IMG/VR virus record: IMGVR_UViG_3300031949_000046
Span: 1-56,118 of that record
Direction: 5' to 3' (one strand)
DNA from: a virus
Taxonomy: Duplodnaviria > Caudoviricetes
DNA: 56,118 bases
Position 1 is the first letter of the stretch. Each line of letters opens with the position of its first letter. Positions 7,596 through 54,463 of this stretch are shown here, in pieces. The translations under genes were made by a program, and so were the position numbers. Under the pieces are notes generated by a model that ran no database searches, was not told the origin of the DNA, and saw nothing but the letters and a program-made list of their open reading frames with translations.

Positions 7596-7985
7596 CCCCA
7601 TAACTCAATCCCCCGGACTTATGAAAAGCCCTACCCCATAAACGTCGGCCCCCATAAGTATTGGCCTATGTATATAGGCCATTATGGGGGCGACTTATGG
7701 GGAGTCCCCGAAAGTATACTTATGGGGACTTATGGGGACTTATGGGGAGTGATGCATATTGGAACACAAATAATGCCTATTTCGCTGCATATTAATAACT
7801 TGCCATACTCAAATAAGTTATTACATGGTATTTTTAAGCAGATGTATGTCATTATTTATTACGACCATTTTCACAAAAATAGTGTAAGAAAAAAGAACTT
7901 CCCCATAATGAAATATCTCGCAAAATGTTATTAATCAATGACCCCCATAAGTCGCAATTTGATCTACTATGACGCGACTTATGTT
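7596..7985. repeat. iteron-like (AC)TTATGGGG repeats, putative replication origin
   Basis: about 10 copies in both orientations, a central palindrome, an AT-rich block, and adjacency to the primase-helicase. Confidence 0.75.
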
Positions 7986-29841: not shown

Positions 29842-29844
29842 TAA

Positions 29845-30765
29845 TTGTCCGTGATATCAAAATCCTGCATAAAATGCCTGCGAGTATTGCCCGTGGAAGA
29901 TTTTGTTAAAAGAGCTTCGTCGCCAGAAGGCTATCGCAATGAATGCAAGTCTTGTACTAGAAAAAATAGCGCCAATGTTTGGGTAAATAATCGGGACAAA
30001 TATAATTCCCAAAGAAGGGCGAAACGACTTCCATTGTCTTTAATAAATACAGAGAAGAAGAAAGCGGAAAAAACTGAGGCATTTAATTCAGCTTTGGATT
30101 TATATAATAAATCAAAGCTTTTATTGAATAAAAATGAATCAGGAAGAACTAAATCTGAATGCCAGTCATGCCATCTAATCTTGCCGCCAGAAATGTTCAG
30201 CAAGTGCAAAACGATGAAATCTGGATGCCATGGGTATTGCAAAAAATGTGATTCTGAAAAGGGAAGAATAAAATATGCGAAACAGCGCGTAAAGATCATT
30301 GAAGATAGAAGGGCGTACAGGGATAGTAATAAAGAATTAATTAAGGCCCAGAGAAGGACTAGGTATGAGAAACTAAAAGCGAATCCCGTGGCGTGGTCAG
30401 CGTTCATGCAATCGAGCCTGAATTACATAAATAAAAAACTCAGGACAGACGTTTCTTTCAGGCTTCTCGCCGCCGCAAGGAATCGCTTATATTACGTGGT
30501 TAAAGGCACCGCCAAAGCAGGCCGAACAATCGAGCTTCTGGGTTGTACTCCCGAGGAGCTGAAGACGCACTTAGAGAAGCAATTCAAGCCCGGATGGACA
30601 TGGGCAGATTGGGGTCCGGTGTTCGAGATCGACCACATCATTCCATGCTCCAAATTCGACATGACTAACCCTGAGCAGCAAAAGAGTTGCTTTCATTACA
30701 CGAATCTACAGCCTTTGCTTAAACAAGAAAACCGCTCCAAGTGGAATAAAATAATCGCTGCCTAA
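29845..30765 (+). CDS. free-standing HNH homing-endonuclease-like protein
   Basis: two CxxC...CxxC modules; EIDHIIPC...FHYTNLQPL...EN; AT-rich relative to flanks. Confidence 0.85.
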   Translation: MSVISKSCIKCLRVLPVEDFVKRASSPEGYRNECKSCTRKNSANVWVNNRDKYNSQRRAKRLPLSLINTEKKKAEKTEAFNSALDLYNKSKLLLNKNESGRTKSECQSCHLILPPEMFSKCKTMKSGCHGYCKKCDSEKGRIKYAKQRVKIIEDRRAYRDSNKELIKAQRRTRYEKLKANPVAWSAFMQSSLNYINKKLRTDVSFRLLAAARNRLYYVVKGTAKAGRTIELLGCTPEELKTHLEKQFKPGWTWADWGPVFEIDHIIPCSKFDMTNPEQQKSCFHYTNLQPLLKQENRSKWNKIIAA

Positions 30766-35000: not shown

Positions 35001-38000
35001 TTCGCAAGCAACGGCTGTCTGAAATCGGGCAGATGCAAGGCGTGACGTACTCGCCCTATCACATCGCCGTGGCGATGAAGGACGTGATGAGCGCGAATGT
35101 GCATGAGCTAGTCACTTTGATACATGAAGCGGCAGAATCGTTGACTATGCGGCTAACTCCTGCGCAACAGGGAGCCGTGATGCGTGCGGTTGAGGCGACG
35201 TTTGCCGACATGCATAGCCGGATGCAAGCGGCGGCTCAAAACACCGGAGCCACGGTCGCTCATGTGCCAAATCCGAGCGAACTTTTGGCGGAAAGTATGG
35301 CGCAGAAGTTCGCCGCAGAGGGCGTGCCGGAATCGAAGTCGCTCGCTGACGCAATCGTGCGTTGGATAAAGGAAATTTACTACCGCGTGGCGATGGCTGC
35401 GCAACGGGCATTTGGTGCGGAGCCAAATCCTGAGCTGGCGATTGCGTGGTTCGAGAATCAGCTACGGCGCGAGCTTGGCGGCGACTACAGTTACAGCCTT
35501 GAGAGTTTGCTCGATCGACTGATGCCCCAGAGCAATGAGACGATTGCCAAGAAGCTCACGGGCTTGACCGGAACGCCAGACGGCCTGGTTGATTTTTATG
35601 ATCCAGTGACGGAATCGCTGCGCCAGCCGATGGCTGAACCGATCAGTAGTGATGCTTTGGCGTGGAACATGAAATTCTCGACCACTCAGCCGAATGCCGG
35701 CGAGAGTTTGGGTATTCCTGCTGAAGAAGCGTATGCCCGCACGGCGGCAGCGGCGTATAATGAGCAGGTAAGGTGGATGGAAGAGATGCGGCTGAAGGTC
35801 GCTCCGAAGATGAACCCGGCTGAGTTCTACGCGATCACTGGTTACGGTCAGGAGAGCCCACAGGAACTGTTGGCTGCGCTTGAAACGCAATCCCCGGGCG
35901 TATCATCCGCCAAGATTGGCGGTGAGCGCATGACGGACATAATGAACAAACAGGCATCTTATCAGGTGCTTCAGTTTGTGCGCGGGATGCAGGCAAAGCA
36001 TCTCGATTCCATCGCCAAAACGCAGGAGACGGTTGCTGATGCGGAAGAGAAATACACCAAGCACGCGGGCGAGTTGAACCGGCTGGAGCCGGACGTGAGA
36101 AACGCTGAAATTCACGAAGGTGTGCTCAAGGACAAAGCGAAGGAGATGCTGACCGACCTGCTGAAGTCGTACAAAGACGGAATCAGGACGGCGAAGGGGC
36201 TCGGCGGCATGATGCGCACCGAGGAAGGGCTTGGCGAGTACGACCCGATGCCCAAATTCTACGAACAGGTGTTTAATAGCCTGCTGAATGGCGACATTGA
36301 ACTATTTAAGTACGTCGATGCGATTGCGGCTCTTGATTTGCCGCTCAGCACGATGAGCCCCGATGCGGTTCTGAAGGCCGTTCGCGACAATGCCGACCAA
36401 TCGCCCGCGCTGAAGGAACTGAGTCGCAATAAACCGCTCGCATTGACGCTGGCGACACTGGCAAGCGACAGTTCACGGCAGTTCGACCAAGTTCAACTGC
36501 GCAAGGCGGAAGGCTCCGCGTTTTTGGAGATTCGCAAAGATTTGGAGGCGATTCGCAACGCGACCGAGGCCCAACTGCGCGAGATGATCAAGACCGTCGA
36601 TGACCGGGCTTTAGCCAAGGGGCTTCGCCAGCGAATCAAGCATGAATACCTGCTGGAACGCCGTGCTCTACGCCTCGCCTCCGACCGGATGGCCGAAGCT
36701 GAGAAGCGGATCAAGCTTTTGACTGAGGCGAAGCCTGAAGTGGCGGCACGAGTTGCTGAAGCTGAACAGGCGATTGGCGGTATCTTCACGGACTGGCAAC
36801 CGATCAACGGCGCGGAGTTCATTGTCATGCGAAAGCGGGACGACGGCTCTTACGCGAAGGCTGTGAGGAAGCTTGTTGAAAATTCGGACGGTTCGTTCGC
36901 TGACTCTGAAGGCATTTACAATGATTTGAAGAAAAACACTCAATGGCTGAAGGCGAACAAAGAGCGCGAAGGCCAGAAGGAGTATAACCAGATCAAGCAC
37001 CAGACTGATAAGCTGAAAATACTGGATATTGGTCGCAGCTATCAGGCGGCAAACTTTGGCAAGATCATGGGCTTTATTGATTCTTTTGTTCGCCCATTGC
37101 AGGCCATAGCCAAGCAGGCGGGTGGTTCAGGATCGCGCATAGTGCAGGCGTTTAATCAGTATGTATTCATCAACCGAAGCGGTGAGAAGGCGTTGATTCC
37201 GGGTTCCCACCGCTGGCAGCACGCGATGAATCGGGCGATGAAATCTGCCGGGATAAAGGACATCGGCCAGTTTAAGGCGCAGGTGTATAATCCGGTGATG
37301 TATTACTTGGGCGTGAACCCAGGGCTCGACCAGTATCAAGCCATCCGCGAGGCAACCAAGGAAGCGCGCAACCGACTGGCGAAGGAACCGGCTGCTGATT
37401 TCAACGAGAAGTTTGAAAAATTCCTGATCGAGACCAAGGCCATCAACGAAGAGATGCTTCGGACTGCCGAGCAGTACGGCGTGATGGTTTCTGATCCCAA
37501 GATTCAGGGCGAGCTTCGCCGTGCGCTGGCCCAAGGATGGATCACGGGTATGCGCGGGATGAATGACGGCGTGGTGGTGACGCTCATAAACGAAATGGGC
37601 AAAGCTGGGTGGAAGATGGAATATGACGGCGAAGGCAAGAAGCGCCGGGCCACACACTCAACGACGTTCCGTGGCATGATTCCGCCCGCGCTCAAAGCGG
37701 ATGAGAGTAACGCCGATGCGAGAGCCGAGTATTTTGCGCAGTTAGAAAACACGGAGGTTGTTCGTGGAGCGTTAAAGCCATTTTTCACTCCGCGTATAGT
37801 AAATGACTGGCTGCTTCCGTTCATCAACAAAGCGGGCAAAGCGGTGTTCACGCACGACGGTAATAACATCCCGCAAATTGCGCTTCAAAACGCATGGGCG
37901 AAGTCAGGCGGCGACGTACTGAACTGGATCGACGAACTGGGCATGAGTATCGACATGAAGCCAGCACAGGGAGTCAGCAATTCCGCCACATTCCGCGCTG

Positions 38001-40946: not shown

Positions 40947-41165
40947 TTATTGTGTGCATGGTGTTTGGTTATTCTGGGATGTTTGCGCAGTAGGCGGAAC
41001 CAATTTCTCCGGCCAAAACTCGCCGTTCACGTTAAAGGCAGAAGATCCTAGCGCTATTTTCCATATCCTGTCTTCGTAGATTTCGATAATTACAGGCAGG
41101 CCCAGTTCGTTTTCACGAAACCAGTAAAAGCCACCTTCAGTTGGTTTTGTTTTTGTCCAGTTCAT
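40947..41165 (-). CDS. cassette gene C (MNWTKT family)
   Basis: 72 aa, ends PPTAQTSQNNQTPCTQ; ATG overlaps the integrase stop. Confidence 0.75.
   Translation of the reverse strand: MNWTKTKPTEGGFYWFRENELGLPVIIEIYEDRIWKIALGSSAFNVNGEFWPEKLVPPTAQTSQNNQTPCTQ
40974..40996 (+). repeat. 23-bp direct repeat copy 3
   Basis: exact copy, preceded by GGTTATT. Confidence 0.95.
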
Positions 41166-42433
41166 GTTAGTGGTGGTGTTGGGTTGCTCTGGAGCGATGG
41201 GGGCACCCCCATGATATACGGTGATGGCGTGCTCATTTGACGCCCGTAGCCCATTGTTATACTCGTATCGCTATGGCCCATCAACCGGGATATTTCCTCA
41301 ATCGACTTGCCTGATGCTGTCAGGCGCAGGCGAAACGTGTGTCGCCAGCCGTAGAAGTTCTTCGTGTTATCGACCCCGCAACGCTCAAGGACTTTGTGGT
41401 AGGGTACGAAATACTTGAACGGATGCCCAGGGTATTTTTTCTGCGCATACGGGAAGCAATAGATACTACCGGTATAGAGCTTGGCTTTCATTTCAGCAAA
41501 AATCTCTTTAAGTTCTCCGCTCCCAAGCAAGGGATCGCTCAACGGAATAATTAGTTCGCGGCCCGTTTTTTGCGGATACAGCTTTACGTAATCCTCGCCA
41601 ATAGATGACCACTCAAAGCGTGTAATATCCACCGGCCTGAGTCCGAGCCAGTAGCTAATCGCGGTGGCGTAGCGCCAGTATGGAGGCACTAGTGGGCTCG
41701 CCATGACAAGTCGGTACTCGGCTTCAGTGAACGGTCTTTCCGGCGTGACCTCGCGTTGCCGGTTCGTGAGCCGTGATTTGTTTATTCTGAGATCGGCGGC
41801 GATGTTGATCTTGCACGCGCCAATAGCCACCGCGTAGGTGAAAAACTGCCGGATGGCGATACGCCAAAGCTTGAGGGTATTTTCCTTCAGATGCCCCGTG
41901 TTCAGAAATTCATGGAGCGTGAGACGCTTGACCAGCGAAAGCCGCGTGTTCTCCAGCTTGCAGCGGGTCATGAATTGATTGACCGCCGACATATACAGTT
42001 TGACGGTTTGCTTTGAGCAGCGGGCTTTGAGTTCATCGCGCCACTGTGGTAGCGCGTGCTTGAATAGCATGTTCTCGCCCGACATGACGACAGGATATTT
42101 ATCGGTGCCGTCGCGAGCCATGTCCGAGAGTGACTTCACTCCGATGTCATCGACGACTTGAAGGGCTTCCTTGATTTCGTCAGTCTCGGTAGTCAGCCAC
42201 TCTTTCTTTTTCGTCTCTGAATTGGTGACGCCCACCCGCCAGTTGCCTGATTTATCCCGCTTGAGATTATGGCCGCGAACTTTCGGCTCCTTGACGTAGA
42301 GGTGCGGATTCTCAGTTTTATCCTGCTCGCGTAGGTGGTATTGAAAGCCCTGTGCCTTGGCGCGCATGGCTAGGAACTCGGGGGATTTGGTGGCGCGTTT
42401 GCGTTTTTCTTTAACCGGGGTTTCGGAGTCCAT
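41162..42433 (-). CDS. int: tyrosine recombinase/integrase
   Basis: GLRPVDI, PQKTG, YGWRHTF, LMGHSD, TMGY catalytic motifs; likely ATG at 42433. Confidence 0.92.
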   Translation of the reverse strand: MDSETPVKEKRKRATKSPEFLAMRAKAQGFQYHLREQDKTENPHLYVKEPKVRGHNLKRDKSGNWRVGVTNSETKKKEWLTTETDEIKEALQVVDDIGVKSLSDMARDGTDKYPVVMSGENMLFKHALPQWRDELKARCSKQTVKLYMSAVNQFMTRCKLENTRLSLVKRLTLHEFLNTGHLKENTLKLWRIAIRQFFTYAVAIGACKINIAADLRINKSRLTNRQREVTPERPFTEAEYRLVMASPLVPPYWRYATAISYWLGLRPVDITRFEWSSIGEDYVKLYPQKTGRELIIPLSDPLLGSGELKEIFAEMKAKLYTGSIYCFPYAQKKYPGHPFKYFVPYHKVLERCGVDNTKNFYGWRHTFRLRLTASGKSIEEISRLMGHSDTSITMGYGRQMSTPSPYIMGVPPSLQSNPTPPLT

Positions 42434-42560
42434 ATTCGGTGATGATGCGGCTGGCGGTGTAATTAAGGGAGCGGTTATCGGCCTTGGCGAAACGGCGCAC
42501 AACTGGCGTGGCCTTCGCGTCGAGCAGAACAGACTGCCGCCCTTTGTGGCGTTTCTTCAT
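42411..42560 (-). CDS. Arc-like ribbon-helix-helix protein (49 aa), absent from track
   Basis: MKKRHKGRQSVLLDAKATPVVRRFAKADNRSLNYTASRIITEYGLRNPG; ATGA-coupled to the upstream gene. Confidence 0.7.
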   Translation of the reverse strand: MKKRHKGRQSVLLDAKATPVVRRFAKADNRSLNYTASRIITEYGLRNPG

Positions 42561-43841: not shown

Positions 43842-44341
43842 TGGACAGAAATGCGCAGGATATTCCGCCCGAAGTTTCGATTGAAGTAATAAAGCAGATC
43901 GAGGCGATGGATCGGGAGATGTATCTTGATTCGCTGAAGAAGGCCGGCGTGTCAGTGAAGACGCTGGATAATCTGAGGGCGATGGACGGGCTTGCCAAGG
44001 ACGCAGGTCGGCAGCTCTCAATGAGCTTGGAGATGACGCACAAGAATTTCATCCTCCAGTTGATGAAGCTGGCGGAGGTGTCGGATAGTTTAAGGAGCCG
44101 GTTAGAGGGGAAGGAGATGGAGGACGGGACGAAGGTTGCACTCGAACCAATCGAGTACGCTGCCATTTCCAGAGTTTACATCGAATGCGTCAAGGAAGCC
44201 CGCAGCGGCTACGGCATGATGCTTACCGGCACTGAGGCGATGGTGAGAATGATGACAGCGGCAAAGGGGAAGGGCGACAGCCCTGAAGGCAAAGCCACTG
44301 CCGGATGGGGGCCGATGAAGAAGGTGAGGGACGTAAAATAA
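43364..44341 (+). CDS. putative terminase small subunit
   Basis: HTH-like AAYKAAGGNASIIARAIGRHPSSV; TAATG coupling to the large subunit. Confidence 0.6.
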   Translation: MVSETQSSGDGPDQDLRCGGSGDQGGEDGGEGSVSPLPETGDAPESDGSGGESGVPEDVPPDDKHSGTPSIEVDQENPKDSRHSGTGHRKSSGKISKAAFRAAYKAAGGNASIIARAIGRHPSSVVERIDADPELRADYRRTEKEFIAHPDSAPSRTDVMDRNAQDIPPEVSIEVIKQIEAMDREMYLDSLKKAGVSVKTLDNLRAMDGLAKDAGRQLSMSLEMTHKNFILQLMKLAEVSDSLRSRLEGKEMEDGTKVALEPIEYAAISRVYIECVKEARSGYGMMLTGTEAMVRMMTAAKGKGDSPEGKATAGWGPMKKVRDVK

Positions 44342-45915
44342 TGCCAGCCATCGACACAGACGTATTTGAGGAGTTGGGTGAAATGCTGCGCCCACCGGCC
44401 AGGCCGAAAGCCGTGAAGAATAAAGCATGGCGACCGAAGCTAAACCCAATCCAGAACAAAGTATTTGAGTGCGAAGTAAGGAATGTTTTGGTTCACGCCG
44501 AAAAAGCCAGCGGAAAAACGATTGCCTGCTGCCACCGTGTCGTGCGCCACTGCTACGAAAATAGAAATGCGCTCGCGTTTGTTCTCACTACCGTCAAGTC
44601 GATGTCCGAAGATGGCGGCGCGTGGCATAAGCTCGTAACGGAGATATTGCCAGAATGGGAAAAGGGGCTTGGCCTCCATTGGAAGCGAGCCAACGACAAG
44701 CAGCACAACGAAGTGATTTGGGTGCAGAATCAGCACAATGAATGGTCGCAGATTAAGGGTATATCCGCACCGCATCCCGATCAACTTCGTGATCGGTTTC
44801 CGGGTCGCGAGCCAAGTATGGTTTTTGTGGACGAGATCACGCTTTGCGCGACAGATGAATATTTTAAAGCGGCGTCCGCACAACTTGGACGCCGGCCATT
44901 CGTTGAAGGCGTGCAGCAGTTTATGGCGGCGTGCAATCCTGCTGGTCCGTCTCATTGGGTACATAATCTTTTCTTTGTCGCTCCGTTCGATGAGGAGAAA
45001 GGCGAGTGGGATGATAACTATACCACGATTTATGTTCCGCTCTCGGACAACGAGCACAACCTTCCGCCTGGGTACATAGATAATCTTAAATCCACCTACA
45101 AACACGACCCAATCGAGTCCGCCCGGTTGATTGGTGGTGAATGGATTGATCGGCCATCGGGCGAGAGCTTGTTTCGCGAGATATACAACCAGAACCTGCA
45201 TGTGCGTCCGCTCGACACAGACGGAAATCCCGACCGCCGAAGCTGGCTTCAGCCGACCAAAGGACATTCGATGATTATCGGCCTTGATCCTGGCAGCATG
45301 AACAACGCCTTTATCTTCATGCAGTGGGTGCCGATAGATGGGCATATGAAGTGGGTGGTGTTTGACGAGTTGGTGACGCTGCGAAAGCGCATCGCCTACG
45401 AAGACTTCATCCCCATGGTCGCCCGCCGCGTTAAGTTCTGGCGCGACACGATAGGCGCTTCAGCCAAGGAGTTGCCGCAAATCTGGATTTCAGACAACAG
45501 TGCGTTCAACCAATACCGGGCGGCGAGCGGCAGTTACGACGTGCTGGAGATCGAGCGAATCTATGACGCTTGCCGGGAGAAGTACGGACTGGAACCGCTG
45601 GGCAAGATCAAGCCCGCGCCCAAGTTCAACGATTCCGTCATGATCCGTGTGCAAATGCTGCAACGGCTGCTCGCCAGCGATGAGTTTGTGGTCAGTTCCC
45701 GCTGCTCAAGGGTGCAGGGGATGCTGCTTCAGTTGGAGGCGCAGAAGCAAAAACCGGGAACCTCATTTGATCCTAAGTTGGCCCTCAGCCCAAAGCGCAG
45801 TGACCACCTCCATACTTTCGACGCCACAACCTACCCGATGATAACCGCCAGTATCAGCCCAACCGCGCTTCAGGCCGGACGCAGCATGGGGCAGTCCTTG
45901 GTCAGCATGTCGTGA
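44341..45915 (+). CDS. terL: terminase large subunit
   Basis: LNPIQ, Walker A AEKASGKT, VFVDEI, ACNP, HWV, nuclease IGLDPG and DHLHTFDA. Confidence 0.92.
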   Translation: MPAIDTDVFEELGEMLRPPARPKAVKNKAWRPKLNPIQNKVFECEVRNVLVHAEKASGKTIACCHRVVRHCYENRNALAFVLTTVKSMSEDGGAWHKLVTEILPEWEKGLGLHWKRANDKQHNEVIWVQNQHNEWSQIKGISAPHPDQLRDRFPGREPSMVFVDEITLCATDEYFKAASAQLGRRPFVEGVQQFMAACNPAGPSHWVHNLFFVAPFDEEKGEWDDNYTTIYVPLSDNEHNLPPGYIDNLKSTYKHDPIESARLIGGEWIDRPSGESLFREIYNQNLHVRPLDTDGNPDRRSWLQPTKGHSMIIGLDPGSMNNAFIFMQWVPIDGHMKWVVFDELVTLRKRIAYEDFIPMVARRVKFWRDTIGASAKELPQIWISDNSAFNQYRAASGSYDVLEIERIYDACREKYGLEPLGKIKPAPKFNDSVMIRVQMLQRLLASDEFVVSSRCSRVQGMLLQLEAQKQKPGTSFDPKLALSPKRSDHLHTFDATTYPMITASISPTALQAGRSMGQSLVSMS

Positions 45916-46961: not shown

Positions 46962-49331
46962 ATGAACGACCCCAAGGTACTCGCTAAATTCAAATGCACT
47001 CCAGAAAGCTTGCGTGAAATCTTCACGACAAAGGGACCGGGAGAGCCGTTGAAGGATGACGCGACCGAGGAGCAGAAGGCGTGCGAGTGCCGGCGCGAAA
47101 AGAATTACAAAATCCGTCGCAAGTTTGAGGAAGAGATTCGCAGCAACATGCTGGAGGGCGTGGCCAATAATGCGCGCAATTCCCGTCCGTGTCAGGCAGT
47201 TGATATGGCATGGGATTCAGCGCCCATCTCACGCGAGACGGTGCCGCTCATGCTTTGGGCGATGGGCAAGATTGACGTGCCTCGTCTATGGGATGTGCTG
47301 CGGGATGAGCTTGGCGAAACAACCGCCGCCACGTTTCTCAAGAAAGACCCAACGTCAGGCGCTATGCTTGCGCCAAATCAAGCGCGCATTTGCGATGTTA
47401 AAATTGACTTGGTGCGTTCCTACATGACCCGCCGTTTGGCCGCGATGGACGCGCTATGGGCAAACCAATGGCCGCTGTTCAAGTATGACCCACGCGGAAC
47501 AGAGGCGGTCGCGATGTTGCGCGCCGATGCGTTGACTCAGCGCGTGGACATCATGTCAGACGCCTATAATTACCGCCATTTCGGGACGCAGTGCCGGCGA
47601 GACATGTTGATGTACGGGCAGTCGATTGCTTTCCCGCGCAGCTCATGGGATCGGCAGATTTCATGGCGCTTCAAGCCGACGAATACGGGCGAGCCGAGTG
47701 ATGAGGTGGAGAGCTATATCACCCGCGAGGGCGTTGACTTCGTGAATCCGCATCCGAACCGCGTGGCCTACGACATGAGCGCGCCACTCGCGAACATAAA
47801 CACCGACAACGGGCCAAACTGGATATTCTACTGGGACATCACGCGCTACAGCAATTTTCACGATCATCCCGACAAGTTCTTTAATCTGGATGAAATCTGG
47901 TTCTCCGAAGGATGGACACAGATCACGGCCATGTACCCGGAGTTTTTCGGCTACTACTTCGATCCATGTGTTCTCTCGTGGCCGGACGTAAACGGGACAA
48001 ACCCGACATTGGTAAATGACCGTGTAACGCAGATCGGTGTCTATGCGACCAAGTGGAGGGACAAAGGCGTGTTGGCCGTAAACTATTTCAAGAAGGTGAA
48101 CCCGAAGGTCTGCGGCCTTGGCGATTACGATGCGGATGTTTGGCTCAAGTTTGCGGTGGCTGGTGATGGAACGATTATTGCAGCTGAATATCTGCCATCA
48201 CTCCCTGCCGCCTATGGCGCTATCAACTGGAATGACAGCAAGGTTGCCAACCAATCCATGGGCATGGCACTACTCGGCTACCAGGATCAGGCGTCGAATA
48301 TCCTCAGCCACATGCTCCAGCAGATTCGGACCAGCCTTGTTCAGCTTTGGCTGCTAGATACTGACTCGCTTGATCCTGAAGTGGTGAAGGAACTGGATAA
48401 GAACGCCGCCAATGCAAGCTGGTGGGTGGATGCGAAGGTCCTGAAGTACTCAGCGAAGAAGCTGAGTGAGCTTGGTATCCAAGACCCAAAGCAGGCGTTT
48501 ACTGTCATTCAGGCGAATGTGCAGAATGTGGTGCAGTCTGGATTAGCGGCTCTTGGCCAACTTCTAAATCTCGCCGACCGACTGCTGATTCTTTCTCCTA
48601 ATGAACTCGGCCAGCCTAACCCGCGTGAAGTGGCGGCGCGTGAAGTGCAGGAGATTGCAAACTCGGTAAACGCTGTCACCGCTTTCAACAACGAGGGGCC
48701 GCGTGAACAGGTAGCTGCGATGAAGGAGCTGATTTATGAGTCGCTGATTTGTTGCGCGGCGGAAGTTGTGACCGTGCCAATCGAAGGGCGGTACACGCTG
48801 GCGACAATTAAGAAGGCTGGATTTACGGTGCCGGACATGGAGAGCAAGGAGCAGGATAACCAGTTGATCGCGGTCAAGACGCGCATCATGGGCAGTCTGC
48901 GCAACCTTCGATACGATTACTATTTCAATAGCCGCGACGGCGCGGAGCGTCCGCAGAATACGCAGGGCGCGCAGGTCGTTCAGCAGTTGCTTGCGTCCCT
49001 CCTCCAGATTCCTGCCGTGGCTCAATCCATGGGCAAGAAGGACATTTACGATATGGTCAATACGGTCATCCGCATGTCGGGAGCACCGCTCAACTTCCAG
49101 CTTCAGATGGCGGAAGGCGAGGACGATGCTATTGCGCCAGAAGGTGGAGAAGTCCCCCCGCAGGGCGCACCGCAGCAAGGCAGCTCCGAAGGCACCGATG
49201 CCCGCATAGCCCGACTGGAGCAGATCATCATGGAGATGGCCAAGTCGCAGGGAGCAATGCCCGCACAAGGCGCGCAACCGCCCGGCCCTCCGTCGCCCGC
49301 TCAAGTCCTCGCGCCTCCGATGGCTGCGTAA
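46962..49331 (+). CDS. portal protein
   Basis: 789 aa between terminase and scaffold/capsid; DMLMYG, ELGQP..REVAAREV, Q/P-rich tail. Confidence 0.8.
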   Translation: MNDPKVLAKFKCTPESLREIFTTKGPGEPLKDDATEEQKACECRREKNYKIRRKFEEEIRSNMLEGVANNARNSRPCQAVDMAWDSAPISRETVPLMLWAMGKIDVPRLWDVLRDELGETTAATFLKKDPTSGAMLAPNQARICDVKIDLVRSYMTRRLAAMDALWANQWPLFKYDPRGTEAVAMLRADALTQRVDIMSDAYNYRHFGTQCRRDMLMYGQSIAFPRSSWDRQISWRFKPTNTGEPSDEVESYITREGVDFVNPHPNRVAYDMSAPLANINTDNGPNWIFYWDITRYSNFHDHPDKFFNLDEIWFSEGWTQITAMYPEFFGYYFDPCVLSWPDVNGTNPTLVNDRVTQIGVYATKWRDKGVLAVNYFKKVNPKVCGLGDYDADVWLKFAVAGDGTIIAAEYLPSLPAAYGAINWNDSKVANQSMGMALLGYQDQASNILSHMLQQIRTSLVQLWLLDTDSLDPEVVKELDKNAANASWWVDAKVLKYSAKKLSELGIQDPKQAFTVIQANVQNVVQSGLAALGQLLNLADRLLILSPNELGQPNPREVAAREVQEIANSVNAVTAFNNEGPREQVAAMKELIYESLICCAAEVVTVPIEGRYTLATIKKAGFTVPDMESKEQDNQLIAVKTRIMGSLRNLRYDYYFNSRDGAERPQNTQGAQVVQQLLASLLQIPAVAQSMGKKDIYDMVNTVIRMSGAPLNFQLQMAEGEDDAIAPEGGEVPPQGAPQQGSSEGTDARIARLEQIIMEMAKSQGAMPAQGAQPPGPPSPAQVLAPPMAA

Positions 49332-49337
49332 TATTTT

Positions 49338-49478
49338 ATGAGAAAAATATACAGCAACATCGCTGCGTTTTTCAGCTACATGACAGTGGTTGGAAATGCA
49401 CTGCACTCCCCCCGCATGGTCCTATTCTTTTCTCGCGCTTCTTTCGCTATGCTTGAGAGGTCGTGGAGGATGAAATAA
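49338..49478 (+). CDS. small hydrophobic ORF (46 aa), absent from track
   Basis: MRKIYSNIAAFFSYMTVVGNALHSPRMVLFFSRASFAMLERSWRMK fills the gap almost exactly. Confidence 0.4.
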   Translation: MRKIYSNIAAFFSYMTVVGNALHSPRMVLFFSRASFAMLERSWRMK

Positions 49479-49482
49479 CGTC

Positions 49483-49989
49483 ATGAGTACAATAGGATAT
49501 ACAGAGGATATTGATTTCGCCCGTAATAGGAAGGGGTTGATGTATGATACACTAGCGGACAATAATTGCGTAATAGACTTTGGCTCTAAACCACTTTCGA
49601 TTGAAATACTGAAGGAGTTTGTTTATAGCACATATCGAAACCGGGAGGCATCTGGCGTAGATTGCAATGTCATGGATTTAATGGTGTCAGACCGGAACAG
49701 CGACTTGCTCGCGATTGAATTCATAGCAGATATGCAGTCCAAATACGGGAAAGAATGCGCGAATCCTTATTTGAGCGACAAATCTGGCAATCCACTAAAA
49801 TATCTATCTGTCGATATTCCCGAATGCGGATGCGTGATCGCCATAATCCCGTCAGAGCAACTCGGATTTAAGATGAAGGACGACCAGTTGTGGGCGATTG
49901 ATTTGTCTGATATTACCGGGCATCCCCCTAAACCAATGAATCCGAATCGTCACTTAATCATAGAAAACTTTAAGGGATTTACGAAATAA
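49483..49989 (+). CDS. truncated paralog of the major capsid protein C-terminal region
   Basis: collinear motif matches to 52751..54463 (see findings). Confidence 0.75.
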   Translation: MSTIGYTEDIDFARNRKGLMYDTLADNNCVIDFGSKPLSIEILKEFVYSTYRNREASGVDCNVMDLMVSDRNSDLLAIEFIADMQSKYGKECANPYLSDKSGNPLKYLSVDIPECGCVIAIIPSEQLGFKMKDDQLWAIDLSDITGHPPKPMNPNRHLIIENFKGFTK

Positions 49990-49992
49990 TTT

Positions 49993-51378
49993 ATGCCAAC
50001 CGAAACCGCCCCCCAACCCGTCGCGGCCCCTGCCGCTGTTACGCCACCGCCTTCTCAAGCAGCGCCCAAAGTTGAGACGCCACTTAACACGGTTACGCAA
50101 AAGCCGATCAGCGAAGCTGCGCACAACCTGTTCAAGATGCTTCAGGACAGCGGTGATCCGCTGAAGGAAGCTGATGAGCCAGCGCCGAAGAAGGAAGACA
50201 AGCCAGCGGCTGTTGCGCCAGTTGAGGCCAAGCCCGCGACCGAGGATAAGCCAGTCGTCAAGGTGAGCAAGAAAACGCCGAAGCGGCCTGAGCTTCCAAC
50301 TCAAAAGGAAGAGGGCGCTGCGCCTGCGCCGGTCGCAACACCAGCTCCGACAGACAATAAGTGGAAGGATTCCCTGCTTGATGAGGAGAAGATCGCGCTG
50401 GAGGATGCGGAATTTGCCGAGAGGGTGAACCCAAAGCACAAGGGGCTCACTGAAAAGATGGGGAAATTCCTGCGCGACCAGAAGGACTATCTGGAGAAGC
50501 ATCCCGAGGCGGATAACGACGATCCTGAGTACAAGAAGATTCTCGCCCGTGCTCCGTCTCTCACCGCTGCTGACAAGCGAGAGATTGCAGAGGCACGGAT
50601 TGAGGACCGCGTGGCGAAGCGGTACGACTCAAAGTACGAATCAATCGAGCATGAGCTTTTTGTGCGTGACGAGGAACCAAAGGTGGAGGGCGAAGCGCAA
50701 CAGATTAGGAAATATCTAGCGTTCAATGCACTGCCGAAAGAAATGCTTGATGTACTAAAAGAGAAGGGCCTGCCTGAACTCCAAAAGCAGTATGCGGATG
50801 AATTGGAGGTTTCGGGTGGCATCATCAATGACGTGGTGGCTGATGCCAAGGAACTGCTGCGGATTACGCGGATTGACCCAAGGACACGCCGGCCCCTTGC
50901 GCAGGCTGCCGGAGATGAAACCCATCCAAAGTGGAAGCAACATAATCGTATTGCGGTCATGGTTAATGCTGCCTGTGATGACTTCCAGAAAAATGCTCCG
51001 CAATCCGAGCAAGTAAGAAACGGGAAGTGGTTTGTGACCCGCGAAGAATGGGCGAATATTTCGCCTGCCCAGCGCGGGCAATTCTGGACGTTCACCAATA
51101 GCCAAGATGATATGCGAGAAGTGATCCAGCGCGTACTGAGCTGGCAACCGGGATTGATCGCAGCTGAACTCAAGAAGCGTGAGGAATCCCAAAGACAGCG
51201 CGGGTGGGTTCGCCAGCGCACGCCATCGCCAGTCGTGCCTGCTGCGACTCCGCCGCAACCCGTGGCTAGTGCCGCAACACCGCGCCCTTCTCCTTCTCCG
51301 GCCCCAAGCAGCACGCTCTCAGGTCAGTTAAGTCCGGGGCAAATGCTGGCGCGTCGTCTGTCAGGCACAGGAGAATAA
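49993..51378 (+). CDS. capsid scaffolding protein (putative)
   Basis: P/A/E/K-rich disordered N-terminus, helical core, position between portal and capsid. Confidence 0.65.
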   Translation: MPTETAPQPVAAPAAVTPPPSQAAPKVETPLNTVTQKPISEAAHNLFKMLQDSGDPLKEADEPAPKKEDKPAAVAPVEAKPATEDKPVVKVSKKTPKRPELPTQKEEGAAPAPVATPAPTDNKWKDSLLDEEKIALEDAEFAERVNPKHKGLTEKMGKFLRDQKDYLEKHPEADNDDPEYKKILARAPSLTAADKREIAEARIEDRVAKRYDSKYESIEHELFVRDEEPKVEGEAQQIRKYLAFNALPKEMLDVLKEKGLPELQKQYADELEVSGGIINDVVADAKELLRITRIDPRTRRPLAQAAGDETHPKWKQHNRIAVMVNAACDDFQKNAPQSEQVRNGKWFVTREEWANISPAQRGQFWTFTNSQDDMREVIQRVLSWQPGLIAAELKKREESQRQRGWVRQRTPSPVVPAATPPQPVASAATPRPSPSPAPSSTLSGQLSPGQMLARRLSGTGE

Positions 51379-51381
51379 TCC

Positions 51382-52587
51382 GTGGCCAAAAAAAGCATTT
51401 TTGCACAGCTCAAGGCTAGTGCGGTGCCGACGCATAAGCTGCTTGAGAGTCCGCGCTACCAAAACCCCGGCCTGTTTAAGTACGCTGGGAAATACTGGCT
51501 GGCGTATCGTTATCACCGGATGGACACACCGACGAAAAGGAGCGGCATCGGCATCTGCGAAATCGACGTGGAGACAGGCGAACCAAAGTCGGCATCGCAG
51601 CGCATTCCGCTATCTAACCCAACCGACTCCGAGCATCACGAAGACTGTCGGCTGTTTGTCTTCAACGGCGATCCATTTATTTCGTACACGACCATGCAGG
51701 GCTATGTGCCGGGCGTCAATTACACCTGCGTAATGCAGTACGCCAAATTGAAGCTGACCAAAAAAAAATGGTCAGTCGTGCAGGAATGGCAACCGCGCCA
51801 CGGCAACAACACCGGCTTCGCGAAAGAAAAGAACTGGATTTTTTTCGAGCACAACAAGGCGCTCTACTGCATTTACGCGACCGATCCTGAGCACGTCGTT
51901 CTGCGCATCGAGGGCGATGAAGTGGTGGAGACGATAAAAACGCCAGGGCCATTGTGGCAATGGGGGCATGTGCGCGGAGGCACGCCGCCTGTCGATCTTG
52001 GTGATGGCCGGATGTTGTGCCTGTTCCATTCCTCAATCCCAACTGAGGAGCCTCCGCATTTCGTGCGCTACTATGCCGCCGCGTACACGTTTGAATCGAA
52101 GCCGCCGTTCAAAATTCTGCAAATATCCGAGCAGCCGGTGATGTCCGGCTCGGAAGAGGACGGCCACAAGGTTGATCCGCGCTACGTTCAGGGATGGAAG
52201 CCGTATGTTGTGTTCCCGTGCGGACTGGTGAAGGACGGCGACAGGTTCATCACTTCGTTCGGCGTGAACGATTGGCAGTGTGCAGTGGGTAGCCTGACGA
52301 TGGATCAGTTGGTGCTTGGGTCGCCAGACGGGTCATCGTTCAAGCCGCGCTTCTTCAAGACAGCCAACGGAACAATGCCCATCCGCTACATCGACGCCCA
52401 CCAAAAGCCGATCTTCATGCATTGGGAAGTTGTCAAAAGGCCGGGTATATGCGTTGCTGGCGAAGGTTATATGCACGTCTCGAATGCGCGAGAAGCAGTG
52501 GAGGTAAGCGAACTTCAGGGCGTCGAAGAGATACCCAAGGACGGCTTTGATCTGGTGATGCGCAAGCTGAAGGCTTTGCGACGATAA
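51382..52587 (+). CDS. beta-propeller glycoside hydrolase/phosphorylase/transferase-like protein
   Basis: NPGL, HEDCRLF, EKNWIFF, VRGGTP, YVVFPCGL, SFGVND. Confidence 0.75.
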   Translation: MAKKSIFAQLKASAVPTHKLLESPRYQNPGLFKYAGKYWLAYRYHRMDTPTKRSGIGICEIDVETGEPKSASQRIPLSNPTDSEHHEDCRLFVFNGDPFISYTTMQGYVPGVNYTCVMQYAKLKLTKKKWSVVQEWQPRHGNNTGFAKEKNWIFFEHNKALYCIYATDPEHVVLRIEGDEVVETIKTPGPLWQWGHVRGGTPPVDLGDGRMLCLFHSSIPTEEPPHFVRYYAAAYTFESKPPFKILQISEQPVMSGSEEDGHKVDPRYVQGWKPYVVFPCGLVKDGDRFITSFGVNDWQCAVGSLTMDQLVLGSPDGSSFKPRFFKTANGTMPIRYIDAHQKPIFMHWEVVKRPGICVAGEGYMHVSNAREAVEVSELQGVEEIPKDGFDLVMRKLKALRR

Positions 52588-52750: not shown

Positions 52751-54463
52751 ATGGCAGATGTACTGAACCCGGCCTGCGTTGGCCGCACTATTAACGTCAG
52801 TTCGGCCTGCGGCTGCACACTGACCGCTGCGACCATCACCGGTTTCAGCTCCGCCGACATCGTTGCTCTCGGTAATTCCGAAACCAACCTCACCCGCACG
52901 ATCCTTGCCGCTGGCGAGGCGAAGATGCTGGGAGTTCCTGAGCGTAATTTGATGACGCTCCTGAACAGCAACATTCGTGAGATCGGCAAGAAAGCCCTCA
53001 CGGTTCACAACATCGACGGCCAGTCGATCATCCAGCCGTTCATCCTGCGCGGTCAGCGTTCGTTCATCAACGCCAACTATTGGACGATTCTTACCGGCAC
53101 GCCTTCGACCACTGCTGGCGTCGGCGAGGAACCGCTTTCTTCGTGGAAAGTCACGGTCGGTCTCGGCAATTCCACGATCCAGACCACTCTTGAAGCCATC
53201 GAACGCTTCTTCACGGTCGGTTCGACGATCATCGTCAAGACGTGGGACAACGTCGCGACCAAGACGGCGCTCACTCACGTCTTCACCGTATATGCCGCTG
53301 TCAATGCTGACGCTGGCGCGGTCAAGAAAGCCACGCTGACGATTTACCCTAACGTCAACGACACCAACTGGGCTCTCCTGAGCGCCAGTGAAAAGGCGAA
53401 TTACCAGCCAACCTTCGGCATGGTGCAGAACGGAACGAATTCAACTAACGACAAGGAATCGTACTGCCCACAACAGCCTTCCGATCTCAGCAAGCGCCTG
53501 CTTGCAAGCTGGCTCCAGACCTCCCGCGAATCGTACTGCCGCGAGCAGTCTTACGAGGAAGTTTTGGACGCCATTCTCGCCGGCAAGGTAAACGATTACC
53601 TCAAGGGCTTCAAGACGCTCTCCATCGCCGACCAGCAGAAGCAACAGAAGGCGCGCTACGAAATGGAGCGCATGAACTCCGCAATGTATGGTCAGGCTAT
53701 TGACGTGGATGAGCAGACCGAAGCCAACTGGCGCTCGCTGCCCATCGTCTATGACATTGTGGACACAGACTGCCCGCTCGCCTACAAGGCCAGCGCGCTC
53801 GGCATCTTCACGCTGCTCTCGGATTGCAACCGTGTCATCGACATGAACGGCAACCGGCTTGATCTGGATGACATCTTTGAACGCATCTACTGGCTCCGCC
53901 GCTGGCGCGAGGCTGGCGGTGATCGCGTTCCGATCATCGACTCGATGACCGACCGCTTCACTTCCGCCTCCATCTTTGAGGCGATGACCAAGTATTACAC
54001 GGCCCGCTACGGCTGGGACACGGTTCGCTACGCCAAGATCAATGAGAAGATCACTCACGACGGTATCATCATGTTTACCTACAACATCTATGATGTGCCG
54101 GATTCAATCACGCAATGGGCGGTATTCGTGGATGACTTCTTCAACGATCAGGTTGATGCCGCCAATACCCGCTGGGTTGGCTGGGAGGCTTCCACTCGCG
54201 TCAACGAAATCTGGTTCCTTGACTGGTCCGACATCTTCAAGGGTGTCGCCGGTCACAAACAGGTTTCCCGAAAGACGCCGAACAGCAACACAGACCTTGC
54301 CATCTGGCAGTGCGTGATTGATCCGAACGTCAAGAGCTACGATCTGCGGAGTGAGACATGGACCATGATGGTTGACCGTCCTGAACGGCACTTGATTATC
54401 CATAATTACGCCGCTGGTTGCCCTCGCGTCACCATTCCGGGCTGCACTGTTCCTCAGTCGTAA
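52751..54463 (+). CDS. major capsid protein
   Basis: 570 aa with strongly C-ending codons; LQTSR, NSAMYGQ, LGIF motifs in HK97-like order; head-module position. Confidence 0.8.
   Translation: MADVLNPACVGRTINVSSACGCTLTAATITGFSSADIVALGNSETNLTRTILAAGEAKMLGVPERNLMTLLNSNIREIGKKALTVHNIDGQSIIQPFILRGQRSFINANYWTILTGTPSTTAGVGEEPLSSWKVTVGLGNSTIQTTLEAIERFFTVGSTIIVKTWDNVATKTALTHVFTVYAAVNADAGAVKKATLTIYPNVNDTNWALLSASEKANYQPTFGMVQNGTNSTNDKESYCPQQPSDLSKRLLASWLQTSRESYCREQSYEEVLDAILAGKVNDYLKGFKTLSIADQQKQQKARYEMERMNSAMYGQAIDVDEQTEANWRSLPIVYDIVDTDCPLAYKASALGIFTLLSDCNRVIDMNGNRLDLDDIFERIYWLRRWREAGGDRVPIIDSMTDRFTSASIFEAMTKYYTARYGWDTVRYAKINEKITHDGIIMFTYNIYDVPDSITQWAVFVDDFFNDQVDAANTRWVGWEASTRVNEIWFLDWSDIFKGVAGHKQVSRKTPNSNTDLAIWQCVIDPNVKSYDLRSETWTMMVDRPERHLIIHNYAAGCPRVTIPGCTVPQS

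What the first reader, a model, noticed from the sequence alone, without database searches (positions are those of the whole stretch)
49338..49989. Stand-alone mini-paralog of the phage's own capsid protein
Seen: the 168-aa ORF aligns collinearly with the capsid C-terminal region. GLMYDTLADNNCVIDFGSKPLSIEILKEFVYSTYRNREASG..VMDLMVSDR matches GIFTLLSDCNRVIDMNGNRLDLDDIFERIYWLRRWREAGG..IIDSMTDR; SKYG matches ARYG; YLSVDIPE matches YNIYDVPD; LWAIDLSDI matches IWFLDWSDI; PNRHLIIENF matches PERHLIIHNY. The roughly 40-aa stretch between the last two blocks is replaced by a short linker. The gene is AT-richer than its neighbours and follows a 46-aa ORF. Inference: it retains only the axial (A) domain of the HK97 fold, so it could be a decoy for capsid-sensing defences (CapRel and Lit are established examples of such sensing), an assembly or size modulator, or an inhibitor of competing phages.
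Basis: partly seen in the sequence, partly recalled or inferred. Interest (0 to 1): 0.8.

Follow-up and report, generated by a model that had tools for sequence, protein, structure and literature searches.

The report
Stand-alone capsid A-domain gene in phage
An uncultured soil phage carries, wedged between its portal and scaffold genes, a small imported gene that encodes only the central (axial) domain of the phage capsid protein fold; it belongs to a rare family of such mini-proteins that probably mimic unassembled capsid subunits.

Summary
The 168-aa ORF (49483-49989) is homologous to residues about 352-496 and 542-555 of the phage's 570-aa protein (52751-54463). Evidence: BLASTP E 2e-4, 0 of 500 shuffles reach the score, profile-profile E 6.9e-31. 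I showed the 570-aa protein to be an HK97-fold major capsid protein.

The mini-protein folds confidently (pLDDT 82.9). All 50 listed matches of an all-against-PDB structure search are HK97-fold shell proteins. It is the A-domain, with the P-domain hairpin replaced by an 8-residue linker.

It is not a recent copy of the resident capsid gene. Identity to its own capsid is 22%. It clusters with eight other stand-alone proteins of 147-266 aa. It sits in a 661-bp low-GC cassette inserted exactly at the portal|scaffold junction. It is absent from 87 related loci.

So it is a real, horizontally moving accessory gene. Its function is inferred only: a mimic of free capsid subunits. I favour a decoy for host sensors that bind the capsid A-domain (about 0.3). 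The close rival is a protein that binds capsid subunits themselves (about 0.25; weak co-folding support).

The parts
49332..49992 (+). 661-bp low-GC cassette inserted exactly between the portal stop codon and the scaffold start codon
   Evidence: GC is 0.425 against 0.530 for the window; 20 of 1110 windows of 661 bp are as low. In 61 of 85 related loci a scaffold-sized ORF starts within 30 nt of the portal stop. The sequence was read.
49338..49478 (+). 46-aa ORF of uncertain reality at the 5' end of the cassette
   Evidence: Listed. It has no Pfam or PHROG family, pI 11.5 and no Shine-Dalgarno-like run before its ATG. Spacers of only 6 nt after the portal stop and 4 nt before the mini ATG would fit a packed operon. 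There is no Rfam match and no RNA structure signal (z -0.78).
49483..49989 (+). Mini gene of 168 aa: a stand-alone HK97-fold A-domain. The alternative start ATG 49540 (M20) gives 149 aa.
   Evidence: Public gene callers used both starts (P0001 149 aa, P0140 168 aa). Residues 1-15 have pLDDT below 50. Four homologs begin at the position aligned to M20. GGAGGA lies 9 nt before ATG 49483 and GGAAGGGG lies 7 nt before ATG 49540.
53804..54238 (+). Capsid codons 352-496: the first and larger A-domain segment, homologous to mini residues 20-145
   Evidence: hhalign. Secondary-structure elements match one for one between the two models.
54239..54373 (+). Capsid codons 497-541: a long beta-hairpin (strands 495-509 and 528-541) with no counterpart in the mini, where 8 residues (146-153) stand instead
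   Evidence: The gap in the hhalign alignment; strands in the capsid model.
54374..54415 (+). Capsid codons 542-555 (the P-x-R-H-L-I-I-x-N block): the last A-domain strands, homologous to mini residues 152-165
   Evidence: hhalign. P154, R156 and H157 are invariant in all 9 minis. R546 is invariant, and P544 and H547 nearly invariant, in 42 capsids.
52751..54463 (+). Major capsid protein gene, 570 aa, HK97 fold with a large beta-rich insertion
   Evidence: AlphaFold model with pLDDT 72.5. Foldseek against the PDB gives 176 matches at E <= 0.001, led by phage capsids. 253 homologs, none with a Pfam family.
46962..49331 (+). Putative portal gene (789 aa), the left neighbour of the cassette
   Evidence: Called portal from position and size only, after the large terminase (Pfam Terminase_6N 3.5e-11). 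Conserved in 85 related loci. No Pfam or PHROG family.
49993..51378 (+). Putative scaffold gene (461 aa), the right neighbour; its ATG lies 3 nt after the mini stop codon
   Evidence: Called scaffold from position and composition only. Conserved position in relatives. No family.
41162..42502 (-). Tyrosine integrase gene (context: the phage is probably temperate)
   Evidence: PF00589 at 42.7 bits and 40.9 bits, against a curated cut-off of 27.1.

Best explanation
What it is (shown, about 0.9). ORF 49483-49989 is an intact accessory gene. Its product is a free-standing A (axial) domain of the HK97 capsid fold. It derives from the 570-aa capsid family of this phage group, with the N-arm, E-loop, insertion domain, spine helix and P-domain hairpin all removed. 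It belongs to a rare family of stand-alone proteins of 147-266 aa. It arrived by horizontal transfer in a 661-bp low-GC cassette at the portal|scaffold junction.

How it most likely works (inferred, about 0.3). It lies in the late head operon, 3 nt ahead of the scaffold gene, so it should be made together with the capsid protein. It shows the capsomer-forming A-domain surface of an unassembled subunit. It lacks every part that would tie it to the scaffold or to the lattice, so it should stay soluble. I propose that it acts as a molecular decoy. It would occupy host immune sensors that detect free capsid monomers through their A-domain, without supplying the remaining contacts needed to switch them on. 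That would shield the real capsid protein while it accumulates.
For: Identity. Homology reaches E 6.9e-31. The fold is confident (pLDDT 82.9, pTM 0.77). All 50 listed entries of an all-against-PDB structure search are HK97-fold shells, with Z from 8.6 (rmsd 3.4, 140 residues aligned) down to 5.2. Eight stand-alone homologs exist. Eleven columns are invariant in the family. Of 20 columns conserved in at least 90% of 73 capsids, 9 are kept in at least 7 of 9 minis.

Accessory status. The A2 profile hits only capsid frames in 86 of 87 related loci; the 87th locus is cut off before the A-domain. It also hits only the capsid gene in 13 near-complete related genomes, apart from one 94-aa relative elsewhere in G009. 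Base composition is foreign. Branches are long. The junction holds other small genes in 24 of 85 relatives.

Timing. Spacers to the neighbouring genes are 6, 4 and 3 nt, and no terminator lies on the + strand.

Sensors of the right kind exist. [quoted passage not shown]
Against: No host, no sensor and no binding partner is known for this phage. Nothing here tests binding to any immune protein.

A protein that binds the same sensor surface could just as well trigger it.

The capsid protein is made in great excess, so a decoy would need higher affinity or earlier synthesis.

Six capsid-invariant positions are lost in the minis (T400, R402, Y415, Y416, Y447, F464). The mimicry of the surface may therefore be imperfect.

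The genomic contexts of the eight homologs could not be fetched. I therefore cannot show that the family travels with anti-defence genes, or even that all members are in phages.

A compendium of 268 anti-defence proteins (10.1101/2025.06.06.658234; passages read) does not use the word capsid in its main text. Its fold comparison with defence triggers reported by Nagy et al. found only Gam. There is thus no precedent.
Confidence: 0.3

Rival explanations
1. It binds capsid subunits themselves. The free A-domain docks on the A-domain of a full-length capsid protein as a neighbouring subunit would in a capsomer. Two roles are possible. It could cap or chaperone the phage's own monomers, or tune assembly. 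Or it could poison capsomers of related competitor phages or satellites as a dominant negative, a capsid-derived exclusion factor carried by a probably temperate phage.
For: Co-folding of capsid residues 266-570 with mini residues 17-168 gave 'weak support'. The median score of three runs was 0.37 and the best of 3 controls was 0.01. The partner's pLDDT was at least 75 and the runs agreed in at least 29% of their contacts. In the tool's calibration the mark was reached by 58 of 80 solved complexes and 2 of 110 mismatched pairs. At 0.60 or under, it was reached by only 7 of those 80 solved complexes and by both of the mismatches that passed. The tool says such a pass is more often wrong than right unless the guess was likely beforehand.

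From established knowledge of HK97 capsids, A-domains contact each other around the capsomer axis. The gene sits next to the scaffold gene. An integrase is present, so expression from a prophage is conceivable.
Against: The pass may reflect the model's memory of solved capsomers, as the tool warns.

Identity to the resident capsid is only 22%, and 6 of 20 capsid-invariant positions are lost.

A helper of assembly should be conserved among relatives, yet 0 of 87 related loci carry the gene.

A poison made in the same operon as the phage's own capsid would harm the phage unless it is specific for foreign capsids.

No + strand promoter-like site was found in the cassette upstream of the gene. The scan covers only sigma-70-type sites.
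Confidence: 0.25
2. The A-domain fold has been reused for a job unrelated to capsids or capsid sensing, for example binding another host or phage target. The resemblance to the capsid would then be only historical.
For: The family diverges fast, with 26-39% identity among members and long branches. No family library recognises it. Pfam, PHROGs and NCBIfam give nothing, and PADLOC gives 1 of 9 members at E 0.0086 only. One relative lies next to a DNA methyltransferase gene rather than in a head module.
Against: The residues kept are largely those the capsids also keep: 9 of 20, plus the P-x-R-H block. This suggests the ancestral surface or core is still under selection. The structure search lists no non-shell protein among its 50 entries.
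Confidence: 0.2
3. It is a minor virion or procapsid component, such as a plug or decoration sitting on capsomer centres or near the portal vertex.
For: It sits inside the head-gene block, between portal and scaffold, and is co-oriented and tightly packed with them.
Against: It is absent from 87 related loci with the same head module. Its base composition is foreign. Structural parts of a conserved head are rarely this patchy. The resident capsid already carries a large insertion domain (residues about 97-265).
Confidence: 0.12
4. It is a non-functional remnant: a piece of a foreign capsid gene left by recombination and still open by chance.
For: Only one sample holds this exact DNA, so selection could not be measured within the lineage. 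A 94-aa truncated relative exists in G009 and may be a decaying copy.
Against: Nine divergent members keep an open frame of similar length, the same precise hairpin excision with a short linker, and 11 invariant residues. The protein folds confidently on its own. The gene has its own start codon and ribosome-binding-like sequence, and it abuts the neighbouring genes cleanly.
Confidence: 0.08

Closest known systems
The 570-aa HK97-fold major capsid protein family of this phage group (no Pfam or PHROG family; 253 homologs; structural neighbours are the Vibrio phage VP1 and phicrAss001 capsids)
   Same: The A-domain shares sequence motifs (N-R-V-I-D, Y-x3-R-x-R-E, V-I-D, Y-G, D-x-P-E-x-G, L-W-x-L-D-W-S-D, P-x-R-H-L-x-I) and the same order of helices and strands.
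   Different: The mini lacks residues 1-351 of the capsid (N-arm, E-loop region, insertion domain, spine helix) and the hairpin 497-541. It therefore cannot form a shell. It is only 22% identical to the resident copy and forms its own clade.
Second capsid-protein homologs within one phage, such as the vertex protein gp24 beside gp23 in phage T4 (recalled, not from a call)
   Same: One genome holds two genes descended from a capsid protein.
   Different: Those paralogs are full-length HK97 folds that build pentons. This one is a single domain, imported rather than duplicated in place, and missing from relatives.
Capsid-sensing immune receptors Avs7, Avs8 and Avs10 (preprint 10.64898/2026.01.04.697583; passages and section 11 read).
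   Same: The part of the capsid protein these Avs sensors are reported to grip, the penton/hexon-forming face of the A-domain in monomers, is the part this gene encodes on its own.
   Different: No sensor, host or interaction is known here. No phage decoy built from a capsid fragment turned up in my searches.
Phage morons (accessory cassettes inserted between conserved genes; general knowledge, recalled)
   Same: It has foreign base composition, a clean insertion between two conserved genes and absence from relatives. The same junction holds other small genes in 24 of 85 relatives.
   Different: No promoter-like or terminator-like site of its own was found on the + strand around the gene. It looks embedded in the late operon.
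Capsid-remodelling proteins of phage satellites (Sid of P4, TcaP of PLE; seen here only as PDB entry titles and an abstract) and capsid-derived restriction factors of mammals (Fv1; recalled)
   Same: These are small proteins that act on a capsid protein to change or block assembly. Fv1-type factors are themselves derived from a capsid gene.
   Different: The satellite proteins are not homologs of the capsid protein. The mammalian examples are unrelated in fold and host.

Membership tests
HK97-fold major capsid proteins (shell-forming) | A-domain: two long helices packed on a central beta-sheet | tested here: met
   hhalign E 6.9e-31 to the capsid A-domain. The model has pLDDT 82.9. All 50 listed VIA-align entries are HK97-fold shells, Z 8.6 to 5.2. 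Foldseek ranks capsids first, but weakly (best E 0.047).
HK97-fold major capsid proteins (shell-forming) | P-domain (spine helix plus long beta-hairpin), E-loop and N-arm, which are needed for contacts between capsomers and with the scaffold | tested here: not met
   The mini aligns only to capsid 352-496 and 542-555. The hairpin 497-541 is replaced by 8 residues, and nothing corresponds to capsid 1-351. It is therefore not filed as a capsid protein.
Stand-alone A-domain mini-protein family (defined here, alignment A2) | Length about 147-185 aa (one member 266), A-domain motifs, hairpin replaced by a linker of 8-13 residues, ending shortly after the R-H-L-x-I block | tested here: met
   phmmer E-values run from 3.5e-19 to 5.1e-4 for 8 homologs. 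The alignment has 11 invariant columns. Eight of 9 members form a clade with support 0.96; P0129 falls with distant capsids.
Recent in-genome paralog of the resident capsid gene | Closest relative is the resident gene, with matching base composition | tested here: not met
   Identity is 22.0% to the resident capsid, against up to 29.1% to other capsids and 35.2% to P0122. GC3 is 0.467 against 0.734 for the capsid gene.
Moron-type accessory cassette | Inserted between conserved genes, foreign composition, absent from relatives | tested here: met
Moron-type accessory cassette | Own promoter and terminator | tested here: inconclusive
   The sigma-70-type scan found no + strand site upstream of the gene and no + strand terminator. 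The host is unknown, and the scan does not cover other promoter types.
Known anti-defence or defence proteins | Match to a curated family | tested here: inconclusive
   PADLOC gives 1 of 9 members at E 0.0086 and nothing for the window's protein. NCBIfam gives 0 of 9. No library of anti-defence proteins was available.
Decoy of capsid sensors | Binds a capsid-sensing receptor without activating it | not testable with these tools
   Host and sensors are unknown.

The most novel reading that the evidence does not exclude
A phage-encoded 'trigger mimic'. This free capsid A-domain would saturate host pattern-recognition receptors (Avs7/8/10-like or CapRel-like) that watch for unassembled capsid subunits. 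It would blind them without switching them on. That is an anti-defence strategy built from a piece of the very protein being sensed, and it would spread between phages as a small cassette.
Probability: 0.27. Interest if true: 0.9.

Novelty: new variant of a known kind. Interest (0 to 1): 0.62.

Why it matters
The HK97 fold is known as a shell-building unit. A conserved, soluble, single-domain derivative that moves between phages as an accessory gene would be a new use of that fold.

If it is a decoy, it would be the first anti-defence protein made from the sensed structural protein itself. It would also give a direct handle on how capsid-sensing immunity reads the A-domain.

If instead it binds capsid subunits, it would be a phage-borne, capsid-derived regulator or inhibitor of assembly. 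That is a mechanism known from satellites and from mammalian retroviral restriction, but not from a capsid fragment in phages.

Either way the hypotheses are cheap to test: co-expression with the capsid protein, scaffold and candidate sensors.

Tried and rejected
1. P0123, a 4941-aa hit with 17 stretches, is a eukaryote-type array of xylanase-inhibitor (TAXi) repeats by Pfam. I dropped it as a repeat artefact.

2. P0131, a 391-aa hit to the A2 profile, shares a 90% cluster with proteins of 662-676 aa. It is a capsid fragment, not a mini, and was dropped.

3. I could not obtain genomic context for the eight mini homologs.
- The A2 alignment was too divergent for pattern scans (errors).
- Single proteins and the smaller alignments A3, A4 and A5 found no confirmed relative in viral contigs, metagenome contigs or genome contigs.
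- tblastn of the mini, P0125 and P0126 against 50,697 deposited phage records found nothing. The capsid and the local DNA also found nothing there.
- The single-protein capsid scan of viral contigs also failed before the alignment scan worked.
- The look-up of encoding contigs is closed and was not called.

4. Sequencing runs: one DNA run holds the stretch. It is a soil metagenome and probably the source sample. No RNA holder is listed. P0140 is 100% identical and may come from that same sample, so it is not independent.

5. The ESM Atlas gave feature scores of at most 0.84, and its own model is poor (pLDDT 0.39). It gave no usable lead.

6. The earlier-findings index had nothing.

FastTree was used instead, so support values are SH-like only and long-branch effects are not excluded.

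8. The cassette has no Rfam match, no RNA structure signal (z -0.78) and no meaningful flanking repeats.

9. Charge and pI of the minis (pI 4.7-6.2) resemble the capsid A-domain (pI 4.8). There is no sign of a DNA mimic.

10. A profile search of PDB sequences with A2 gave 0 matches at E <= 1.

11. Literature searches were checked as listings and abstracts only, plus passages of two preprints. None showed a description of a stand-alone capsid A-domain protein. Supplementary files were not seen.
Full report
**Setting**

The window is a whole IMG/VR virus record of 56,118 bp, linear, with a CheckV completeness estimate of 77%. The only sequencing run found to hold the region is a soil metagenome, probably the source sample.

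The + strand carries these genes in order:
- large terminase, 44305-45915 (Pfam Terminase_6N, 3.5e-11);
- a 789-aa portal-sized gene, 46962-49331;
- a 46-aa ORF, 49338-49478;
- the 168-aa ORF of the finding, 49483-49989;
- a 461-aa scaffold-like gene, 49993-51378;
- a GH130-like gene, 51382-52587;
- a 570-aa gene, 52751-54463.

A tyrosine integrase lies at 41162-42502 on the minus strand, so the phage is probably temperate. Neither the local DNA nor the 570-aa protein matches any of 50,697 deposited phage records.

Yes.
- BLASTP of the two proteins gives 35% identity over 52 residues, E 2e-4.
- The local alignment score is 62, against 32.9 +/- 4.9 for 500 shuffles of the mini. None of the shuffles reaches it.
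- Against a profile of 42 capsid homologs, the single mini sequence reaches probability 97.7, E 1.6e-12 over 120 columns.
- The profile of the mini family against the capsid family reaches probability 99.85, E 6.9e-31 over 145 columns.

That last alignment pairs mini residues 20-165 with capsid residues 352-555 and leaves capsid residues about 497-541 unmatched.

**Is the 570-aa protein a capsid protein?**

Pfam and PHROGs are silent on it. Its AlphaFold model, built from 42 sequences, has mean pLDDT 72.5. The model matches solved HK97-fold capsids: Vibrio phage VP1 at E 2.7e-14 and phicrAss001 at E 2.4e-13, with 176 chains at E <= 0.001. The family has 253 detected members, all unnamed.

**What does the mini encode?**

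With the nine-sequence family alignment it folds confidently: pLDDT 82.9, pTM 0.77, and only residues 1-15 disordered. Its elements correspond one for one to capsid elements:

| Mini element | Capsid element |
|---|---|
| strand 30-32 | strand 362-364 |
| helix 40-56 | helix 372-387 |
| strand 63-68 | strand 395-400 |
| helix 70-88 | helix 402-420 |
| strand 108-112 | strand 439-449 |
| strand 117-123 | strand 454-460 |
| strand 135-138 | strand 486-489 |
| strand 158-161 | strand 548-551 |

The capsid's long hairpin (strands 495-509 and 528-541) is the piece that is missing.

An exhaustive structural comparison with 48,161 PDB representatives lists 50 entries. All of them are HK97-fold phage, herpesvirus, gene-transfer-agent, satellite or encapsulin shell proteins. 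They are aligned through their C-terminal halves, with Z from 8.6 (rmsd 3.4, 140 residues) to 5.2. Foldseek ranks capsids first but weakly, with best E 0.047.

From established knowledge of the HK97 fold, two helices on a central sheet, interrupted near the end by an excursion into the P-domain sheet, is the A (axial) domain. I infer this domain assignment from topology. I did not superpose the model on an annotated structure.

**It is a family, not a one-off**

An exhaustive phmmer scan of 1.84 billion representative proteins returned ten hits. They were the protein itself, eight stand-alone proteins of 147-266 aa (E 3.5e-19 to 5.1e-4, 30-40% identity), and one artefact, P0123, a eukaryote-type repeat protein by Pfam. 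No full-length capsid protein was among them.

The nine sequences share 11 invariant positions (L24, Y48, R52, R54, D65, E114, A120, D143, P154, R156, H157) and the same short linker in place of the hairpin. Of 20 columns conserved in at least 90% of 73 capsids, 9 are kept in at least 7 of 9 minis, 5 are kept in part, and 6 are lost.

Divergent members thus keep frame, length, motifs and the precise excision, and the protein folds well alone. This argues strongly against a decaying fragment. dN/dS could not be computed because the homologs' DNA was out of reach.

**It is not a local duplicate**

- Over 130 aligned columns the mini is 22.0% identical to the resident capsid. It is 13.5-29.1% identical (mean 24.0%) to 73 capsids, and 35.2% identical to mini P0122.
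- In a FastTree of 81 A-domain sequences, eight of nine minis form one clade (SH-like support 0.96), with the window's mini sister to P0122 (0.94). P0129 falls with distant capsids. Branches are long, so attraction artefacts cannot be excluded, and IQ-TREE did not finish.
- GC is 0.420 and GC3 0.467, against 0.54-0.58 and 0.59-0.73 for the neighbouring genes.

**Distribution among relatives**

The head module terminase-portal-scaffold-capsid is conserved in the 80 IMG/VR loci and the 7 genome-contig loci (for the first 80; for both sets).

A profile of the mini family was run against every open frame of at least 50 aa in these loci. It hits only the capsid frame in 86 of the 87 loci. The 87th, L069, is cut off before the A-domain. 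Small frames are hit only in the window itself and in one 94-aa ORF. In 13 related records (11 of them at least 90% complete) the profile again finds only the capsid gene, plus that same 94-aa ORF.

The 94-aa ORF is at G009:4093-4377 on the minus strand, next to a DNA methyltransferase-like gene. It resembles the mini family (probability 91.8, E 7.6e-7) much more than the capsid family (probability 4). It does not continue in another frame.

In 61 of 85 loci the scaffold-sized ORF starts within 30 nt of the portal stop. In the other 24, the junction holds unrelated small ORFs or a gap. The window's 661-bp cassette (49332-49992) therefore sits in a recurrent insertion spot. Its spacers to the neighbouring genes are 6, 4 and 3 nt.

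No + strand promoter-like site lies upstream of the gene and no + strand terminator-like site was found. There is also no Rfam match, no RNA fold signal and no flanking repeat of note.

**Start codon**

Public gene callers used both ATG 49483 (168 aa) and ATG 49540 (149 aa). Four homologs begin at the position aligned to M20, and residues 1-15 are disordered. The tight packing behind the 46-aa ORF fits the longer form. I leave both open.

**Mechanism**

What is shown: the gene encodes a soluble-looking A-domain without any of the parts that tie a capsid subunit to the scaffold or to neighbouring capsomers. It lies in the late head operon. It is patchy, fast-evolving and foreign in composition, which is the usual signature of genes involved in conflicts rather than core assembly.

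What is inferred: it works by mimicking an unassembled capsid subunit. Two versions are close in likelihood.

1. A decoy for host sensors, which I favour at about 0.3. [quoted passage not shown] Loss of all lattice-forming parts is what a decoy needs in order not to be built into the phage's own heads.

2. A binder of capsid subunits, at about 0.25. It could be a cap, a chaperone or a poison of competitors' capsomers. Co-folding with the resident capsid's C-terminal half gave only weak support: median score 0.37, best of three controls 0.01, partner pLDDT at least 75, and runs agreeing in at least 29% of contacts. In the calibration the mark was reached by 58 of 80 solved complexes and 2 of 110 mismatched pairs. 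At 0.60 or under, it was reached by only 7 of those solved complexes and by both mismatches that passed. The result may also reflect the model's memory of solved capsomers.

Less likely readings are an unrelated reuse of the fold (0.2), a minor head component (0.12) and a remnant (0.08).

**Comparison with what is known**

It is not a capsid protein in the functional sense, because the P-domain, E-loop and N-arm are absent (tested, not met). It is a member of a small family defined here.

It behaves like a moron in its insertion and composition. It does not show a promoter or terminator of its own.

No curated family claims it: Pfam, PHROGs and NCBIfam give nothing, PADLOC gives one marginal hit in nine members, and PDB sequences give nothing.

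Four full-text searches, checked as listings and abstracts, and passages of two preprints showed no description of a stand-alone capsid A-domain protein. A compendium of 268 anti-defence proteins does not use the word capsid in its main text. Its fold comparison with the defence triggers reported by Nagy et al. found only Gam.

**Verdict**

It is a new variant of a known kind, with moderate to high interest. The main gap is the genomic context of the eight homologs, which ten attempted scans could not retrieve: eight completed without a confirmed relative and two returned errors.

Noticed in passing
window 51382-52587 (+): A 401-aa GH130-like (beta-1,4-mannooligosaccharide phosphorylase family, Pfam PF04041, 9.1e-10) gene sits between the scaffold and capsid genes. 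Homologs hold the same position in the closest relatives (L003-L005, L007-L011). In others (L045, L046, L052, L053, L065) they lie downstream of the capsid gene, and in L058 further downstream still. A glycoside-hydrolase-fold protein inside a head module is unusual. It could be a head decoration or a carbohydrate-binding protein.
   Followed up: partly
G009:C1:4093-4377 (-), which is L083 4093-4377: A related 77.7-kb phage carries a 94-aa ORF resembling the middle of the mini family (hhalign probability 91.8, E 7.6e-7). It lies directly downstream of a 448-aa DNA methyltransferase-like gene, far from the head module. It has no N-terminal strand and no C-terminal L-W-x-L-D-W-S-D or R-H-L blocks. 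It may be a shorter form or a decaying copy.
   Followed up: partly
L070-L075, L077, L082 (about 100-aa ORFs), L020, L051/L056, L069, L045/L065, L046, L049, L052, L053: In 24 of 85 related loci the portal|scaffold junction holds other small or mid-sized ORFs (99-102 aa in one distant clade; 148, 299 and 341 aa elsewhere) or a gap. None of these ORFs matches the mini profile. The junction looks like a hotspot for accessory genes.
   Followed up: partly
window about 7300-7900 and about 29600-30100: There are two further low-GC islands (661-bp windows down to 0.39 and 0.38, against a window mean of 0.53). The second overlaps the start of a 306-aa ORF (29845-30765) with no Pfam family. These may be other imported cassettes.
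   Followed up: no
window 52751-54463 (capsid protein): The capsid family keeps many cysteines. C239, C341, C521, C557 and C565 are invariant. C9, C20, C22, C263 and C359 are nearly invariant in 42 sequences, including an N-terminal C-G-C-T-L motif in a region modelled with low confidence. This suggests disulfides or metal binding in the shell.
   Followed up: no
window 32084-40411 (+) and 41162-42502 (-): A 2775-aa ORF is followed by a divergently oriented tyrosine integrase gene, which sits between the giant gene and the terminase module. The giant protein was not analysed.
   Followed up: no
window 7998-10031 (-): A 677-aa ORF on the minus strand carries a BT4734-like N-terminal domain (2.2e-25) and an AAA_25 domain (4e-07). 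This points to a primase/helicase-type replication protein.
   Followed up: no
L084-L086, L088; P0092: Related phage contigs are binned in public genomes labelled Opitutus, Verrucomicrobia/Verrucomicrobiota, Deltaproteobacteria and Terracidiphilus. These are only binning-level hints at hosts.
   Followed up: no
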